Of a DNA stretch of 37,050 nucleotides, positions 1 to 27,967 are shown one piece after another. Within the stretch, counting starts at the first letter, position 1. Every line of letters starts with the position of its first letter. The notes beneath the pieces are model-generated. The model searched no databases. It worked only from the letters and a program-made list of their open reading frames with translations, and had not been told where the DNA came from. The position numbers and the translations under genes are program-made. The DNA is from Luteolibacter sp. (GTDB lineage Bacteria; Verrucomicrobiota; Verrucomicrobiia; Verrucomicrobiales; Akkermansiaceae), in assembly GCA_044358435.1 (NCBI GenBank), contig JBIKNX010000001.1, positions 1-37,050 on the forward strand, given 5' to 3'.

Positions 1-30
1 CTCCGCTTCTCGGTCGCGAGGGGAGAAGAA

Positions 31-222
31 TTTAACCACGAAAAGCACGAAGGACACGAAAGGAAGATGAGTGCTGGGTGTGGTTTTGGATTTGTGGGTG
101 AAGATTGCAGGCGGCTCTACAGATATTAAAGTTGGCTATTTCAAGATTGTAGTCTCGGGTGAGAATTTCTCATGAACGTAATTTTTATTCCTTTCGTGGG
201 CTTCGTGCTTTTCGTGGCTAAA
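31..222. repeat. Gene-less inverted-repeat element A (MITE/REP-like; 35-bp arms of 9-nt CACGAA units)
   Basis: Arm 31-65 TTTAACCACGAAAAGCACGAAGGACACGAAAGGAA matches the reverse complement of 188-222 at 32/35 positions. Confidence 0.85.
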
Positions 223-2754: not shown

Positions 2755-3468
2755 CTACAATGCCCCGAACCTTCTGTGGCGGGACTTGTATTCTTCGACG
2801 GCGGCGAAGAGGTCGCCTTGGCGGAAGTCCGGCCACATTTTCCGGACAATGACGATTTCCGAGTAGGAGATCTGCCAGAGAAGGAAATTGGAAAGGCGCA
2901 TTTCGCCCGAGGTGCGGATGAGGAGGTCGGGATCGGGGATGTCTTTGGTATAGAGATGTCGGGCGATGAGTTCGCCATCGATCTTGTCCGGGGCGATTTC
3001 ACCCGCCACGGCGGCTTTGGCGATGGCACGGACGGCGGCGGTGATTTCCTCACGTGCGCCGTAGGAAAGGGCGAGAACCAGGGTTATGGTTTGATGGTTC
3101 CTGGTCTGCTCCTGGATGCGATCCAGGCGGTTGCGCGTGGCGGCAGGGAGGCGGTCCAGATCGCCGATGGCTTTGAGGCGGATGTTCTGTTTGTCCAGCT
3201 CGTCGGCCTTATCATCGAGAAACCGATCCAGCAGTTTCATCAGGGCATCGACTTCGTTCTTTGGGCGGTTCCAGTTTTCCGAGGAAAAGGCGTAAAGCGT
3301 GAGATATTTCACACCGAGCTCGATACAGGCTTCCGTGACCTCGCGGATGGATTCGGCTCCGGCGCGATGACCCTCCGCCCGCGGGAGTCCACGTTCTTTC
3401 GCCCAGCGGCCGTTGCCGTCCATGATGATAGCGATGTGGGAAACCTGATGGTGGTTGGATGAGGTCAT
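2755..3468 (-). CDS. uppS: Undecaprenyl diphosphate synthase (isoprenyl transferase)
   Basis: HIAIIMDGNGRWA, YAFSSENWNRP, PDLLIRTSGEMRLSNFLLWQ and C-terminal RRFG. Confidence 0.97.
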   Translation of the reverse strand: MTSSNHHQVSHIAIIMDGNGRWAKERGLPRAEGHRAGAESIREVTEACIELGVKYLTLYAFSSENWNRPKNEVDALMKLLDRFLDDKADELDKQNIRLKAIGDLDRLPAATRNRLDRIQEQTRNHQTITLVLALSYGAREEITAAVRAIAKAAVAGEIAPDKIDGELIARHLYTKDIPDPDLLIRTSGEMRLSNFLLWQISYSEIVIVRKMWPDFRQGDLFAAVEEYKSRHRRFGAL

Positions 3469-3890
3469 GGTTCGTTTTCGGGTTGGAACATGCCGCCGTA
3501 GCCGGGTTTGTAGAGGAATAGAGGGGAGTGTTGCGCGATGATTTCGAAGTGGTTATCAACGGTGTATAAACGGACGTCGTCTTGAATCGCGATGGTGGCG
3601 ATGAGGATATCCATCCAGGGAAGGGAATGTCCGTTTTCGCGCAAACGCCAAGCAAGGGAACGCGCGTTTTCCCAGTCCGATTCCCGACATTGGCGGTAGG
3701 GAATCAGGGAAAAATAGTAAGAAAGATGTTTGCGCTCGTTTACCTTAGAACCACCGAGAACTTCCAGTCGGACGGGAGAACACCATTGAGCTTCGTAAAC
3801 ATCAAGCAGGCCATCGAGGGCTCGCTTGACTTCGATGCGTCCTTTTTTTCGGAAGCTCTCCATCCATACCGATGAATCGACCAGAACCAT
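3465..3890 (-). CDS. vapC: PIN-domain toxin (VapC family)
   Basis: VLVDSSVW, EVL, DILIATIA and YTVDNHF acidic PIN motifs; immediately downstream of a small antitoxin-like gene. Confidence 0.9.
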   Translation of the reverse strand: MVLVDSSVWMESFRKKGRIEVKRALDGLLDVYEAQWCSPVRLEVLGGSKVNERKHLSYYFSLIPYRQCRESDWENARSLAWRLRENGHSLPWMDILIATIAIQDDVRLYTVDNHFEIIAQHSPLFLYKPGYGGMFQPENEP

Positions 3891-3891
3891 T

Positions 3892-4122
3892 TCAGTCAGG
3901 GATGTAAGGAGGGAATGGATTGGTAGGATCCTCGCCGTTGTCGGTAGCTGGATCGGGATAGTCGAATGCGCTTTCGCGGATCAAACGACCAAATTCCTTG
4001 GCGCGTGTGCGGCGGACAAAATCTGTTACGGCACGTGCGACCGCTGGACTCTTGTTTTTATCCCCAGTGATTTCCAATAGATCCGCCAAAATGGCTTCAT
4101 CAATGTCTACGGTGATTCTCAT
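3892..4122 (-). CDS. vapB: VapB-family antitoxin (ribbon-helix-helix-like)
   Basis: MRITVDIDEAIL...KSPAVARAV N-terminus; 76 aa; 1 nt upstream of the PIN gene. Confidence 0.85.
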   Translation of the reverse strand: MRITVDIDEAILADLLEITGDKNKSPAVARAVTDFVRRTRAKEFGRLIRESAFDYPDPATDNGEDPTNPFPPYIPD

Positions 4123-4128
4123 GGAAGG

Positions 4129-4178
4129 AAAATAGCATCAAATTTCATCATTTCAAGAGACAAAATGATGAAATTTGA
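4129..4178 (-). promoter_or_regulatory. vapBC promoter with palindromic operator
   Basis: Perfect 16-bp inverted repeat TCAAATTTCATCATTT (4138-4153) / AAATGATGAAATTTGA (4163-4178), overlapping minus-strand TTGAAA-N16-TATTTT-N6-ATG. Confidence 0.7.
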
Positions 4179-4183
4179 GGATA

Positions 4184-5452
4184 TCAGAGACGCAAAGTCT
4201 GCTTGCGATCCGGTCCGACGCCGACGAATGCGATGGGAGCGTCGCAAAGTTCCGAGAGACGGGTGAGGTAAGCTTGGGCGTTTGGCGGCAGTTGGTCGTA
4301 GCTGGTGCACTCGGTGGTATCCTGTATCCAGCCGGGGAGGGTTTCGTAAATCGGTTTCGCGCGATCCCAGAACGAGCGGTCGGCGGGTGGAAGCTCGTGT
4401 CTGGTTCCATCGATGTCGTAGGCAACGCAGATTTTCAGATCCTCATATTCGTCGAGGCCATCGACATTGGTGACGGCGAGACCGGTGACGCCGTTGACCA
4501 TACAGGCGAAGCGCAGCAGGACCGTATCGAGCCAACCGCAGCCACGCGGGCGCCCCGTGGTCGCTCCGAACTCGCGGCCGAGGTTGTGGAGGTATTCGGA
4601 GAGACCTTCATCGCAGGTTGGGAAAGGACCGGAGCCGACGCGGGTGGTGTAGGCTTTGCAGACGCCGATGACCGATTCGATGGCCGTCGGCGGCAAGCCG
4701 GTGCCGGTGGTGGAACCGCCGGCGGTGGTGTTGGAAGAAGTGACGAAGGGATACGTGCCGAAATCGATGTCGAGCAATGTGCCTTGTGCGCCTTCGAAAA
4801 GGAGGTTTTTCTTTGCCTTCCATGCTTTGTGGAGGACAGGAATCGTGTTGGTCACGTGGGGGCGGAGGCGCTCGAAGGCCGCGTAGGTATCGGTGATCAC
4901 GGCATCCGCATGAAAGGTAGGGAGATCGTATTTCACCAGAATTTCGTTCACCTCGGCAACGCGGCGGGTGATCTGAGCTTCGGCAAAAGGACGGTCCAAG
5001 AGATCCGCCATGCGCAGGCCGCAACGGTTGACCTTATCGGCGTATGCCGGCCCGATTCCGCGTTTTGTGGTTCCGATTTTCTGATCGCCCAGAGAGATTT
5101 CACGGGCGGCATCGAGTTCCTTGTGGAAAGGTAAAACGACGTGTGCGCGATCGGAAATCAGGAGTTTCTCAGGGCAGATTTCGATGCCTTGGGCTTCGAT
5201 GCGTTCGATTTCGATGCAGAGGCCGATGGGATCGACGACGACGCCGTTGCCGATGACGTTGATTTTGTGATCCCAGAGAATGCCGGAGGGAAGCAGGTGA
5301 AGGACGTATTTGGTGCCTTTGGCGATGACGGTGTGGCCGGCGTTGTTGCCGCCTTGGCCGCGGATGACGACATCGGCGGACTCGGTGAGGTAGTCAACGA
5401 TTTTGCCTTTGCCTTCGTCGCCCCATTGGAGGCCGGTGATAACAGTGTTCAT
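4184..5452 (-). CDS. purA: Adenylosuccinate synthetase
   Basis: GLQWGDEGKGKIVD, GGNNAGHT, GTTKRGIGPAY, EGAQG and GATTGRPRGCGW. ATG at 5452 preferred over TTG at 5461. Confidence 0.98.
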   Translation of the reverse strand: MNTVITGLQWGDEGKGKIVDYLTESADVVIRGQGGNNAGHTVIAKGTKYVLHLLPSGILWDHKINVIGNGVVVDPIGLCIEIERIEAQGIEICPEKLLISDRAHVVLPFHKELDAAREISLGDQKIGTTKRGIGPAYADKVNRCGLRMADLLDRPFAEAQITRRVAEVNEILVKYDLPTFHADAVITDTYAAFERLRPHVTNTIPVLHKAWKAKKNLLFEGAQGTLLDIDFGTYPFVTSSNTTAGGSTTGTGLPPTAIESVIGVCKAYTTRVGSGPFPTCDEGLSEYLHNLGREFGATTGRPRGCGWLDTVLLRFACMVNGVTGLAVTNVDGLDEYEDLKICVAYDIDGTRHELPPADRSFWDRAKPIYETLPGWIQDTTECTSYDQLPPNAQAYLTRLSELCDAPIAFVGVGPDRKQTLRL

Positions 5453-5465
5453 GAATTTCAAATTT

Positions 5466-5501
5466 TTAACCGCAAATGAACGCGGATTGTGGCTGATTTT
5501 T
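5466..5501. repeat. Extra partial repeat arm next to the GxxExxY cassette
   Basis: TTAACCGCAAATGAACGCGGAT (5466-5487) is a direct partial copy of the arm starting at 5516. Confidence 0.75.
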
Positions 5502-5515
5502 TGGGATGTGGAAAG

Positions 5516-5966
5516 TTAACCGCGAATGAACGCGAATGGACGCTAATGAAGATTGGGTGGGTTGGAGTCTTTGGAGAGAACGACTCGTTCCCATTCCAGT
5601 CGTGGATTCTTGAAATTGATGATGAGTCCCAGTGGGAGTTTTGTGACGCGCAAGTAGTTGAGAACCTGGCCACGCTCGATATCAGTAATGCGATCGATGG
5701 TTTTAGTTTCGACGATGATTTTTTCGTGGGCGATGAGGTCGGGAATAAATTCGCCGACTTTCACTTGTTTCCAACTGACTGGATATCTCGGTTGTTGGAG
5801 AAATGGAATTCCTCTAAAACCGAATTCTACAACAAGGGAGTTTTCATAAATTTTTTCGTTTAGGCCGTGGCCATGACCGTTGGATATCTCCAGCGCGCAG
5901 GAGATAATCCCAAAGACTTCGTCTTTGAAAATTAATTCGCGTTCATTCGCGTTCATTCGCGGTTAA
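5516..5966. mobile_element. Putative mobile cassette: GxxExxY nuclease gene between 32-bp terminal inverted repeats
   Basis: 5516-5547 TTAACCGCGAATGAACGCGAATGGACGCTAAT matches the reverse complement of 5935-5966 at 30/32. Both outer ends are TTAA. The interior is visibly AT-richer than the flanks. Mobility is inferred. Confidence 0.65.
5543..5956 (-). CDS. GxxExxY protein (PD-(D/E)xK nuclease superfamily)
   Basis: GLNEKIY signature; PDLIAHEKIIVETK catalytic-type motif; QVLNYL and GLIINF. Confidence 0.93.
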   Translation of the reverse strand: MNANERELIFKDEVFGIISCALEISNGHGHGLNEKIYENSLVVEFGFRGIPFLQQPRYPVSWKQVKVGEFIPDLIAHEKIIVETKTIDRITDIERGQVLNYLRVTKLPLGLIINFKNPRLEWERVVLSKDSNPPNLH

Positions 5967-7110
5967 TCTTACTTGTCTCGATGAGTTCGGCGAAGTCGGT
6001 GAAAAAGTGAGACGCGTCATTCGGGCCGGGGGCGGCTTCCGGGTGGTATTGCACGGAGAAGATCGGCAGGGATTTGTGGCGCATGCCTTCGACGGTGTTG
6101 TCGTTGAGGTTGATGTGGGTGACTTCGATGTCGGCCGGTAGGGAATCGGGATCGACAGCAAAGCCGTGGTTTTGCGAGGTGATGGAGATTCTACCGGTGC
6201 GGAGATCTTTGACGGGTTGATTTCCGCCGCGATGACCGAATTTGAGTTTGAAGGTTTTTCCGCCGTAGGCGTGGGCGAGAAGTTGGTTGCCAAGGCAGAT
6301 GCCAAAAGTGGGGAGCCGGGTGATGAGTTGTTTGAGTTCCTTGTGAACGTAATCGAGCGCAGCCGGATCTCCGGGGCCGTTGGTGAGAAACAGACCGTCG
6401 GGGTTTTTCGCGAGGATTTCATCAGCGGAGGTTGTGGCTGGAACCACCTCGACCTCGAAGCCTGCCTGGCGCAGCATGCGGAGTTGGTTGAATTTCAGAC
6501 CGAAGTCGATGGCCACGACGCGGTATTTGACAGGTGGCAGTTCTTGGTAAGTTTCGGTTTCACCGATGGATGCGTTGGGAAGAGTCCATTTGCGGGATTC
6601 CTCCGACCAGAAGTAGGAGTGTTTGGTGGTGACTTCTTTGACGAAATCGGAGCCTTCCATCGGTGTGGAGTTTTTGGCAGCGGCGATGGCATCGGCTTCG
6701 GAAAGTTCGGTCGTGACGCAGGCGCGCATCGCGCCGAGTGAGCGAAGGTGTTTGGTGAGGGCCCGGGTGTCGATTCCTTCGATGCCGAGGATATCGTGGC
6801 GATGAAGATAAGAGGAAAGGCTTTCTTGGGAGCGCCAGTTTGACGGAATTTCACACAGCTCGCCGATGACAAACGCACGGATGTGAGGGCCTGCGGATTC
6901 GTTGTCTTCCTGGTTCACCCCGTAGTTGCCAATCATCGGGTAAGTCATCGCGACGATCTGGCCGCGGTAAGAAGGATCGGTGATCACTTCTTGATAACCT
7001 GTCATGGAGGTGTTGAAGCAAATTTCTCCGGTAGTGGTTCCGCTGGCTCCGAAAGAAATTCCGGAAAAGCAGCGTCCGTCTTCGAGGGCAAGGATAGCGG
7101 TCGTGGGCAC
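5953..7110 (-). CDS. carA: Carbamoyl-phosphate synthase small subunit
   Basis: GEICFNTSMTGYQEVITDPSY, NGPGDP, GICLG (catalytic Cys) and QYHPEAAPGP. GTG at 7110 is the likely start. Confidence 0.97.
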   Translation of the reverse strand: MPTTAILALEDGRCFSGISFGASGTTTGEICFNTSMTGYQEVITDPSYRGQIVAMTYPMIGNYGVNQEDNESAGPHIRAFVIGELCEIPSNWRSQESLSSYLHRHDILGIEGIDTRALTKHLRSLGAMRACVTTELSEADAIAAAKNSTPMEGSDFVKEVTTKHSYFWSEESRKWTLPNASIGETETYQELPPVKYRVVAIDFGLKFNQLRMLRQAGFEVEVVPATTSADEILAKNPDGLFLTNGPGDPAALDYVHKELKQLITRLPTFGICLGNQLLAHAYGGKTFKLKFGHRGGNQPVKDLRTGRISITSQNHGFAVDPDSLPADIEVTHINLNDNTVEGMRHKSLPIFSVQYHPEAAPGPNDASHFFTDFAELIETSKINRE

Positions 7111-7226
7111 GGGGCGGGAGGTTATGTACCTCAGGCGCGGGATGGAACACAAAATTTCAGGATAATTTTCGGAGTTTGGATCTTTTAACTCTGGGTCTAC
7201 AGTTGGCGGGCATATCGAGTGTGTTT

Positions 7227-7355
7227 AACCACGGAATGCACGGAATACACGGAGAAAGACAATACCGAAGGCTTGGAAACTAGCTTAACTCCATGGGTGT
7301 AATTGGGGTTCATGAAAGCCTTATCCATTCCGTGTACTCCGTGCATTCCGTGGTT
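7227..7355. repeat. Gene-less inverted-repeat element C (27-bp arms of 9-nt CACGGAAT units)
   Basis: 7227-7253 AACCACGGAATGCACGGAATACACGGA matches the reverse complement of 7329-7355 at 26/27; lies between divergent genes. Confidence 0.85.
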
Positions 7356-7451
7356 TGACATGCAGATTCGGGGTTTCACTTCTTGAATAGGGTGGATGGG
7401 GCTTTTGATGAAAGGGGTTGCAAACTCCTGCGGTGTATTGGAAACACCGGG

Positions 7452-8534
7452 ATGCAGCGCACCTTTGCAGAGTTGTTTCGGGCAGAGGCTTATCCACCGA
7501 TGAGTCATCCGGATGTCGATCCGGCGGTCAATGCCGAGGTCGCGAGGTTTTTCGGGCTGAGTGGACTTACGGTTGAGGGCGCGCGGATTTTGGAAATTGG
7601 CTGCGGAACGGGGCATCATTTACTTTCCGTAGCGAGCTTTTTGCCGACTGCGGAATGTGTGGGTGTGGATGTTTCCAAGCGACAGATCTCAAGAGCGAAG
7701 AATCTGGCGCGGCAAGCGCGGCTGAAAAATGTGAGTTTCTGTGAGAGTTCGATCCTGGATTACGCACCCGAAGGAAAGTTCGATTTCATCATCGCACATG
7801 GAGTTTTTTCGTGGGTGCCGGATGAGGTGAAGGTCGGAATGATGGATTTCATGGGTCAAAGACTCACGAAGCATGGCGTGGCGGTGATGAGTTTCAATGT
7901 TGCGGCAGGCTGGAAGGAGAGAATGCTCGTGGTTCAAAAAGTGCGAGCGGTTCAGGCAGCGGGAGGAGTGGATGAAATCACGGCGCTCGCCGTATTGAGG
8001 GATGTGGCTGATGCGCGAGAAGCGGAGATCGTGGATGACATGCTGGCCAAGCAAGCCGAGGTATTGGCATTTGACGATTTCGCGCCATTGATGGATCCGT
8101 GGTCTCTGGGAGCGGTGGTCAAACTTGCGGAATCAAGCGGATTGCGGTGGTTGGGTGATTCGGTGACCGGAGTGAAGGGCGATGATTTGACCGATGCGGA
8201 GAAGCGGACGACCTTTCGTTCCGAGATATTCTGTCGCAGCGATGTGACGCTTGGCGAATCCGTGCCTGTTCCGGTAAGGTCCGAGCTCGTCTTCTCCGTT
8301 CCGAATCATCCCAAACTTGATCCATGGCGGTTGGTTTGCGCGCAGGAATGCCTTCCATTGGTCGATCCAAAAATGAAATCCTGCATCTTTCCGTTTTCAC
8401 AACTCAAGGTTCTGGCTGCGATGGATGGCAGTCGTTCGGTCATGGCGTTGGCTGATTTTGCAAAAGAGGTGTCACCCGAACTGGATTTTGTTCCATGGTT
8501 GTGGTATGTGGCGCAACGGGGATTTTTCAGTTAG
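7452..8534 (+). CDS. Class I SAM-dependent methyltransferase
   Basis: RILEIGCGTG, VGVDVS and FDFIIAHGVFSWVP motifs. ATG at 7452 chosen as start. Confidence 0.88.
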   Translation: MQRTFAELFRAEAYPPMSHPDVDPAVNAEVARFFGLSGLTVEGARILEIGCGTGHHLLSVASFLPTAECVGVDVSKRQISRAKNLARQARLKNVSFCESSILDYAPEGKFDFIIAHGVFSWVPDEVKVGMMDFMGQRLTKHGVAVMSFNVAAGWKERMLVVQKVRAVQAAGGVDEITALAVLRDVADAREAEIVDDMLAKQAEVLAFDDFAPLMDPWSLGAVVKLAESSGLRWLGDSVTGVKGDDLTDAEKRTTFRSEIFCRSDVTLGESVPVPVRSELVFSVPNHPKLDPWRLVCAQECLPLVDPKMKSCIFPFSQLKVLAAMDGSRSVMALADFAKEVSPELDFVPWLWYVAQRGFFS

Positions 8535-27849: not shown

Positions 27850-27967
27850 AACCACGGATGAACGGAGATGGACGCGGATTGTAAGAGATTTTTGTAAATC
27901 TATTTCCCACCGATTGGTTGAGAGACAAGGTATTCAACTCTTTGATTATCTGTGTCTATCTGCGGTT
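27850..27967. repeat. Degenerate gene-less inverted-repeat element D (10-nt units)
   Basis: Left arm AACCACGGATGAACGGAGATGGACGCGGAT (27850-27879); right arm ATCTGTGTCTATCTGCGGTT (27948-27967); between convergent genes. Confidence 0.65.

What the first reader, a model, noticed from the sequence alone, without database searches (positions are those of the whole stretch)
5931..5966. The 10-nt-period arm acts as a frame-independent stop and restart device that rewrites the end of carA
Seen: the minus strand reads TTAACCGCGA-ATGAACGCGA-ATGAACGCGA-ATTAA. Stops fall at 5965 (TAA), 5955 (TGA) and 5945 (TGA), 10 nt apart, so one lies in each frame, and two are ATGA stop/start overlaps. carA's last codons (NRE*) are encoded by the arm, and its TGA overlaps the nuclease ATG. 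The next position in the series (5935-5933) would stop the nuclease ORF, but it reads TTA instead of TGA. Inference: the repeat lets the cassette land at the 3' end of a gene in any frame, terminate it, and become translationally coupled without its own promoter or RBS.
Basis: partly seen in the sequence, partly recalled or inferred. Interest (0 to 1): 0.78.

Follow-up and report, generated by a model that had tools for sequence, protein, structure and literature searches.

The report
Repeat arm starts a nuclease gene
The repeat is one end of a small, likely mobile cassette; it supplies the start codon of the cassette's predicted nuclease gene and, in this lineage only, also ends the neighbouring carA gene, but its stops in all three frames are not kept in relatives and are likely a by-product rather than a built-in device.

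Summary
5932-5966 is the 5' arm of an inverted pair around a GxxExxY gene (TIGR04256) between carA and purA; the genome holds 64 such 10-nt arms and 61 of period 9. Three-frame closure occurs in 27 of 156 5' arms and 16 of 143 3' arms, and the window's leading TAA in 3 of 11 carA ends with the same overlap. At 31 of 39 host sites no host stop lies within the repeat. At carA, 23 of 38 cassette-bearing ends stop before the repeat; read-through ends fall in one clade and add about 2-5 residues rather than replacing any. What holds: no cassette-free CarA ends in NRE (0 of 18); the in-frame unit keeps ATG in 149 of 156 arms against 106 of 312 out-of-frame units; an in-frame stop at unit 3 is avoided (2 of 89). 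So the arm is a selected start, and a stop only where a host gene came to need one. The scan noted GxxExxY arm cassettes before in other genomes; my searches found them nowhere in print.

The parts
5953..7152 (-). carA, carbamoyl-phosphate synthase small subunit; last codons N-R-E-stop lie in the 5' arm (ORF limits from the first TTG; the true start may be a little later)
   Evidence: TIGR01368, 502 bits, residues 19-392
5932..5966 (-). 5' arm: leading TTAA, then three 10-nt-period units (5962-5935); holds the carA stop (5955) and the GxxExxY ATG (5956)
   Evidence: (I2)
5543..5956 (-). GxxExxY (PDDEXK_3-type) gene, 137 aa; PD...(D/E)xK and QxxxY motifs present; predicted fold nearest to Cas4 SSO0001 and other restriction-endonuclease-like nucleases; its TAG lies inside the 3' arm
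5516..5550 (+). 3' arm, inverted copy of the 5' arm (35 nt, 91% complementary, 381 nt apart)
   Evidence: (I2)
5466..5487 (+). second, partial copy of the 3' arm, 50 nt further on; present only in the window's closest relatives
   Evidence: (D9, I6)
4184..5452 (-). purA, adenylosuccinate synthase; ATG 90 nt after the GxxExxY stop, so not overlapped by it

Best explanation
5932-5966 is the 5' arm of an inverted-repeat cassette carrying a GxxExxY gene; the arm supplies that gene's start codon, and carA likely came to stop inside it only after this lineage lost carA's earlier stop, so the stops in three frames are likely a by-product of AT-purine-purine spacers at a 10-nt period. Shown: the arm pair and gene; the arm family; ATG kept in whichever of the three units is in frame; cassettes lying mostly just behind a host stop; read-through at carA confined to one clade, with a longer tail. 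Inferred: the cassette arrived behind an intact carA stop; a point change or 1-nt slip in the A/T run then let carA run 2-5 codons into the arm, and the spacer base that made the next stop (ATGA rather than ATGG) was kept because carA needed it; the resulting -4 overlap would let terminating ribosomes reinitiate on the nuclease gene. Also inferred, untested: the arms are DNA sites for the predicted nuclease and take part in spreading the cassette.
For: In-frame unit ATG 149 of 156, out-of-frame 106 of 312; one locus per host-gene cluster 47 of 51 against 30 of 102; registers used: unit 1 in 85, unit 2 in 51, unit 3 in 10 loci. Host stop outside the repeat at 31 of 39 sites; 32 of 39 called upstream genes have a Pfam match at 1e-9. 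carA: 56 distinct ends, 18 without cassette, 23 stopping before or at the arm edge, 15 inside; the 13 in-arm rows of the tree all lie in one 16-row clade (SH-aLRT 100) and the 22 cassette rows of the other, 30-row group all stop earlier. Tail after the conserved F-x-x-L-I: 4-6 aa in 17 of 18 cassette-free and 23 of 23 early-stop ends, 7-10 aa in 14 of 14 measured in-arm ends. L032 and L054 are 95-96% identical on both flanks, end carA with the same codons and TGA, and differ only by the cassette. L145 reads stop-N-R-E-W in the frame where the window's clade reads K-N-R-E-stop. Arms of one cassette match each other better than shuffled pairs (3.2 against 6.4 mismatches in 28). 9-nt arms, with three frames closed in 2 of 61, flank most GxxExxY genes of this genome.
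Against: The order of events is not proven: the tree is a quick one, rooted at the midpoint, and an independent insertion slightly upstream of the stop in the window's clade would give the same pattern; the GxxExxY tree has few columns and weak support. Three-frame closure is about three times a letter shuffle (17% against 6%) and reaches 19 of 64 in this genome's 10-nt arms. A host stop touches or enters the arm at 18 of 39 sites. No sense-strand G-U bias in the arm pairs (110 against 158), so an RNA stem over the ATG is predicted but not supported by selection. No experiment on nuclease activity, mobility or coupling.
Confidence: 0.7

Rival explanations
1. One reading: the 10-nt period is selected so that the arm stops any upstream gene in any frame and restarts translation on the nuclease gene, letting the cassette land inside gene ends.
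For: Exact pattern in the window; in-arm host stops at offsets +4, +7, +8, +14, +17, +18, covering all frames; 10-nt arms close three frames far more often than 9-nt arms (19 of 64 against 2 of 61); only 8 of 156 5' arms lack any stop; gap between host stop and arm ATG is -14 to +29 nt in 51 of 72 distinct site-gap values.
Against: Three frames closed in 27 of 156 5' arms; ATGG (no stop) is the commonest unit 1 (83 of 156); 3' arms are as stop-rich; leading TAA in 3 of 11 members of the window's own clade; 31 of 39 sites have no host stop in the repeat; in this genome carA is the only real gene called as ending inside any of 64 10-nt arms (the other 'inside' call is purA's antisense frame); no truncation seen: the C-terminal Pfam domain ends before the arm in the four in-arm hosts where that can be read (L055, L155, L234, L258).
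Confidence: 0.1
2. The arm is a selected start-and-coupling module: the cassette is aimed just 3' of host stop codons so that one of three staggered ATGs falls in reinitiation range, and expression of the nuclease depends on the host gene's ribosomes.
For: ATG retention by register; 39 of 51 sites have a host stop within -60..+40 of the arm; an SD-like core precedes the arm in only 28 of 85 unit-1 starts and 6 of 51 unit-2 starts; the two arms are predicted to pair over the ATG (z -6.15); coupling works best at -4 to +3 and persists to about 30-40 nt (PMC12548453, passages).
Against: Operon spacers are short, so any tolerated insertion lies near a stop (survivor bias, not tested against a null); 12 of 51 sites have no host stop within 60 nt; gaps are scattered and overlaps occur at 6 of 46 sites; the register is fixed inside a cassette and does not depend on where it lands; purA here also lacks an SD (sequence).
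Confidence: 0.3
3. The arms act mainly as an RNA stem (processing or stability element, like REPs or an intervening sequence) and codons in them are incidental.
For: Predicted 30-bp stem closing the whole gene; arms covary within cassettes; REPs near stop codons affect translation (PMC12306157, passages).
Against: Mismatches do not favour G-U on the transcribed strand (110 against 158 in all 143 pairs; 42 against 54 one per site); no Rfam match; no RNA contig joins carA to purA across the cassette, and one 554-nt contig holds the cassette joined to purA (contigs only, weak).
Confidence: 0.12

Closest known systems
Ssn nucleases with NTS/SRM repeats (Chenal et al. 2025, PMC11893778; abstract and discussion read)
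   Same: Small single-domain nuclease gene flanked by 20-50-nt inverted repeats that also occur in many gene-less copies; repeat-gene-repeat layout likened to an insertion sequence.
   Different: Ssn is GIY-YIG; this protein is PD-(D/E)XK. Each arm here is a tandem triplet with a 9- or 10-nt period and supplies the start codon. No activity shown here.
REP/RAYT REPtrons and TIR/TIRYT TIRtrons (PMC3733652; passages read)
   Same: Intergenic repeats in inverted pairs, many just behind stop codons, with a cognate gene between some pairs; expression thought to come from read-through transcripts.
   Different: The enclosed gene is not a HUH tyrosine transposase; a GTAG, GTGG or CGTC tag precedes only 4 of 156 arms.
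MIRU repeats of mycobacteria (one passage of the review PMC12548453; the primary paper not seen)
   Same: A repeat element whose ORF is coupled to a host gene by a -4 overlap.
   Different: MIRU ORFs relay to the downstream host gene; here the -4 overlap is with the upstream gene, occurs at 1 of 46 sites, and the cassette ORF ends 90 nt before purA.
Bacterial MITEs fused to host ORFs (ERIC, RU, RPE, Correia; PMC2229807; passages read)
   Same: Repeat sequence recruited into a host protein's end; some have stops in all frames.
   Different: MITEs carry no enzyme gene and have TA target duplications; no clear duplication here.
GxxExxY / PDDEXK_3 family (TIGR04256, PF13366; table row in PMC3424549)
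   Same: The enclosed protein is a member.
   Different: Listed as function unknown; the passage seen mentions no repeats.

Membership tests
GxxExxY (TIGR04256) | Score over the curated cut-off | tested here: met
   117.8 bits against 35
PD-(D/E)XK nuclease fold | Core fold and PD...(D/E)xK motif | tested here: met
   pLDDT 92 model; best matches SSO0001 (4ic1, E 4.5e-4, TM 0.57), 3ijm, Hjc, lambda exonuclease; P65, D66, K78 invariant in 22 sequences
PD-(D/E)XK nuclease fold | Nuclease activity | not testable with these tools
   needs biochemistry
Ssn-NTS/SRM system | GIY-YIG single-domain nuclease | tested here: not met
Ssn-NTS/SRM system | Gene flanked by inverted repeats with dispersed gene-less copies | tested here: met
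   143 of 156 5' arms have a 3' inverted arm; 64 + 61 arms and 9 genes in the genome
REPtron / TIRtron | Enclosed HUH tyrosine transposase | tested here: not met
   enclosed gene is GxxExxY; 10 Y1_Tnp matches exist elsewhere in the genome, their link to the arms not examined
REP (GTAG/CGTC-tagged) | Terminal tetranucleotide tag | tested here: not met
   4 of 156
IS / MITE | Target-site duplication | tested here: inconclusive
   TTAA on both sides in 25 of 143 (about 15 expected from the marginal counts, and it is part of the inverted repeat); no 6-nt repeat in 143; none in the L032/L054 pair
MIRU-like relay | Element ORF coupled to the downstream host gene | tested here: not met
   GxxExxY stop 5543, purA ATG 5452
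   27 of 156; 13 of 51 one per site
Translationally coupled pair | Downstream translation depends on upstream translation | not testable with these tools
   -4 spacing is present; needs reporters or ribosome profiling

The most novel reading that the evidence does not exclude
GxxExxY cassettes are an undescribed kind of selfish element whose nuclease recognises its own periodic arms and places the cassette directly behind host stop codons, where the arm's three staggered ATGs give the promoterless nuclease gene a start within reinitiation range; the same spacer bases act as a reserve of stop codons that lets host genes and the nuclease gene itself run into the arms without harm.
Probability: 0.3. 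Interest if true: 0.72.

Novelty: new variant of a known kind. Interest (0 to 1): 0.4.

Why it matters
GxxExxY is a widespread protein family of unknown function; three full-text hits for its name and two for its Pfam/TIGR identifiers do not describe flanking arms in what I saw. That its repeat arm is also its translation start, under selection by register, adds a testable piece to how such a cassette could be expressed without a promoter. The specific claim of a universal stop device does not hold, and the carA overlap itself is the commonest kind of bacterial gene overlap.

Tried and rejected
Rfam scan of the window: no match. Viral contigs: 64 pattern matches, none a relative. Promoter and terminator scan of 4000-7700: counts at shuffle level, no promoter-like site on the minus strand in front of the GxxExxY gene; uninformative for this phylum. 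RNA runs: contigs only; no joint skipping the cassette; no contig bridging carA to the cassette; cannot show level, strand or start. One search aligned two neighbouring stretches by mistake and was not used. Thinning kin by GxxExxY identity collapsed to 15 or 6 clusters by single linkage (13 of 15 against 13 of 30 ATG), so host-gene clusters were used instead. The stricter gene caller called 102 of 169 arm loci and missed the window and several of its clade, so the read-in versus three-frame table (1 of 15 against 18 of 80) is biased and is not used as evidence; carA was counted separately. L019 and L137 (apparent frameshifts in carA) were dropped by the filter; L139, L210 and L215 were too short for the tree. 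Of 257 loci with a GxxExxY hit, 255 were analysed, 182 had a 10-nt arm upstream, 169 within 110 nt of the anchor, 156 distinct. TTAA as a target duplication: inconclusive. 'TGA mutated to TTA' as a special event: rejected, TTG/TTA Leu is the norm (72 of 89). Literature searches found no description of these arms; subscription journals and supplements were not seen.

Full report
Observation. The minus strand reads as described. Stops lie at 5965 (TAA), 5955 (TGA) and 5945 (TGA), one per frame; ATGs at 5956 and 5946; 5935 is TTA. CarA (TIGR01368) ends ETSKINRE* and overlaps by ATGA a 137-aa GxxExxY ORF (TIGR04256), followed by purA. The arm has a 91% inverted copy at 5516-5550 and a partial second copy at 5466-5487.

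What the arm is. The genome has 9 GxxExxY genes and many more arms: 32 of period 10 and 59 of period 9 by a strict pattern, none in a shuffle; 64 and 61 by a looser one. Two of the nine genes have 10-nt arms, five clear 9-nt arms, two degenerate ones. The family therefore does not need a frame-rotating period. The protein is predicted to have a PD-(D/E)XK fold nearest to Cas4 SSO0001, with the catalytic P-D and K invariant in 22 relatives.

Test 1, CarA ends. From 41 related genomes and further loci I obtained 56 distinct carA ends. None of the 18 without the cassette ends in NRE. Of 38 with it, 23 stop before the repeat or at its leading AA (offsets -3 to -11), 11 at +7 as in the window, 3 at +8, 1 at +14. 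The tail behind the conserved core is 4-6 residues without read-through and 7-10 with it: the arm lengthens CarA, it does not replace anything. In a quick tree of 53 proteins, all 13 in-arm rows lie in one 16-row clade (SH-aLRT 100) and all 22 cassette rows of the other main group stop early. L032 and L054, 95-96% identical on both flanks, end carA identically with and without the cassette. Unit 1 is ATGA in 11 of 11 ends that use it as carA's stop and ATGG in 21 of 23 that stop earlier. The leading TAA, needed for the window's three-frame set, is present in 3 of those 11. The +7 GxxExxY proteins form one group (support 85) in a weak tree in which carA-site proteins stand apart from those of 49 other sites (the sample was drawn by likeness to the window's protein). 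The simplest reading, inferred, is long residence behind carA, loss of the old stop in one lineage, and fixation of the next available spacer stop. A second insertion at a shifted position is not excluded.

Test 2, other sites. I gathered 257 GxxExxY loci, mostly Verrucomicrobiota but with other phyla; 156 distinct ones have a 10-nt arm next to the gene, 143 of them with an inverted 3' arm. An upstream gene was called for 102 of 169 arm loci, in 51 host-gene clusters; 32 of 39 representatives tested match Pfam. Of 39 clusters with a host stop within -60..+40, 8 have any stop inside the repeat and 12 one at the leading AA, 18 together. In-arm stops fall in all frames. The exact ATGA overlap with the used start was found only at carA, of 46 sites; overlaps of any kind at 6. 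In the window's genome carA is the only real gene called as ending inside a 10-nt arm.

Test 3, are the stops kept? Three frames are closed in 27 of 156 5' arms, 16 of 143 3' arms and 6% of shuffles; mean stops per arm are 2.17 and 2.24. The 3' arm's stop-bearing strand faces away from the operon, so equal numbers argue against selection for terminating host genes. The 10-nt arms are richer in stops than 9-nt arms (19 of 64 against 2 of 61 three-frame), as expected from AT-purine-purine spacers.

Test 4, the start. The unit in frame with GxxExxY reads ATG in 149 of 156 arms, out-of-frame units in 106 of 312; with one locus per host cluster 47 of 51 against 30 of 102, and for unit 1 alone 27 of 28 against 15 of 23. 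Baseline in 3' arms is 117, 101 and 57 of 143 for the three units. Kin are not fully independent. The position equal to 5935 is a stop in 2 of 89 arms where it is in frame, 29 of 67 where it is not, and 57 of 143 3' arms; in frame it is TTG or TTA in 72 of 89, the Leu also found in 56 of 75 proteins of other layouts. So the missing third stop reflects selection for an intact gene, nothing more special. As a mirror case, the GxxExxY stop lies in or at the 3' arm in 25 of 143 loci, including the window's clade.

Coupling. The gap from host stop to arm ATG is -14 to +29 nt in 51 of 72 distinct values, the range in which coupling is reported, and -4 is the commonest overlap in prokaryotes (PMC12548453, passages). 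The arms are predicted to pair over the ATG, but mismatches do not favour G-U on the transcribed strand. An SD-like core precedes a third of unit-1 starts (28 of 85), so some cassettes may initiate alone. Coupling at carA is likely, untested.

Comparison. It is laid out like Ssn-NTS (PMC11893778, abstract and discussion) and REPtrons/TIRtrons (PMC3733652, passages) but fails their enzyme and tag criteria; it resembles MIRU coupling only at this site (PMC12548453, one passage); MITE-derived protein ends are known (PMC2229807, passages). PF13366 is listed as unknown (PMC3424549, one table row). PMC12306157 (passages) and 10.1101/2021.01.26.428298 (one passage) add background only. Seven answered searches found no account of these arms; subscription papers and supplements were not seen. 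Earlier agents of this scan described GxxExxY arm cassettes in other genomes; none of the notes shown covers the start-codon result.

Verdict. Observation confirmed; interpretation partly supported. The three-frame stop device is not a property of the element; the arm as a selected start, with opportunistic use of spacer stops, is. Interest 0.4.

Noticed in passing
window 24-65 / 188-229 and 7222-7253 / 7329-7360: Inverted pairs of 9-nt-period arms with no GxxExxY gene between them; the second lies just upstream of carA.
   Followed up: partly
window about 27850-27965: A short inverted pair of 10-nt-period arms, too close together to hold a GxxExxY gene.
   Followed up: no
window 4132-4184: AT-rich 22-bp hairpin at the purA stop, terminator-like.
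   Followed up: no
L015, L018, L020, L024, L026, L030, L032, carA-purA spacer: Cassette-free relatives hold other short repeat or hairpin families in the same spacer, so this junction collects unrelated small elements.
   Followed up: no
L033, carA-purA junction: carA's TGA overlaps purA's ATG directly with no spacer; may be a deletion product.
   Followed up: partly
L023, L028, L016, L025: Decay stages at one site: a lone partial arm, an internally deleted cassette of 186 nt, and frameshifted GxxExxY genes.
   Followed up: partly
L055, L087, L214, L184, L258, L070: Several cassettes sit behind defence-type or mobile genes (type I S subunit, N6 methylase, PglZ, SbcD, RhuM, Fic) as well as housekeeping genes.
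   Followed up: no
window 3465-3890: VapC-like toxin ORF (below the NCBIfam cut-off) overlapping the start of uppS, downstream of purA.
   Followed up: no
G000, 10 places: Y1_Tnp (HUH transposase) matches; whether any is flanked by these arms was not examined.
   Followed up: no
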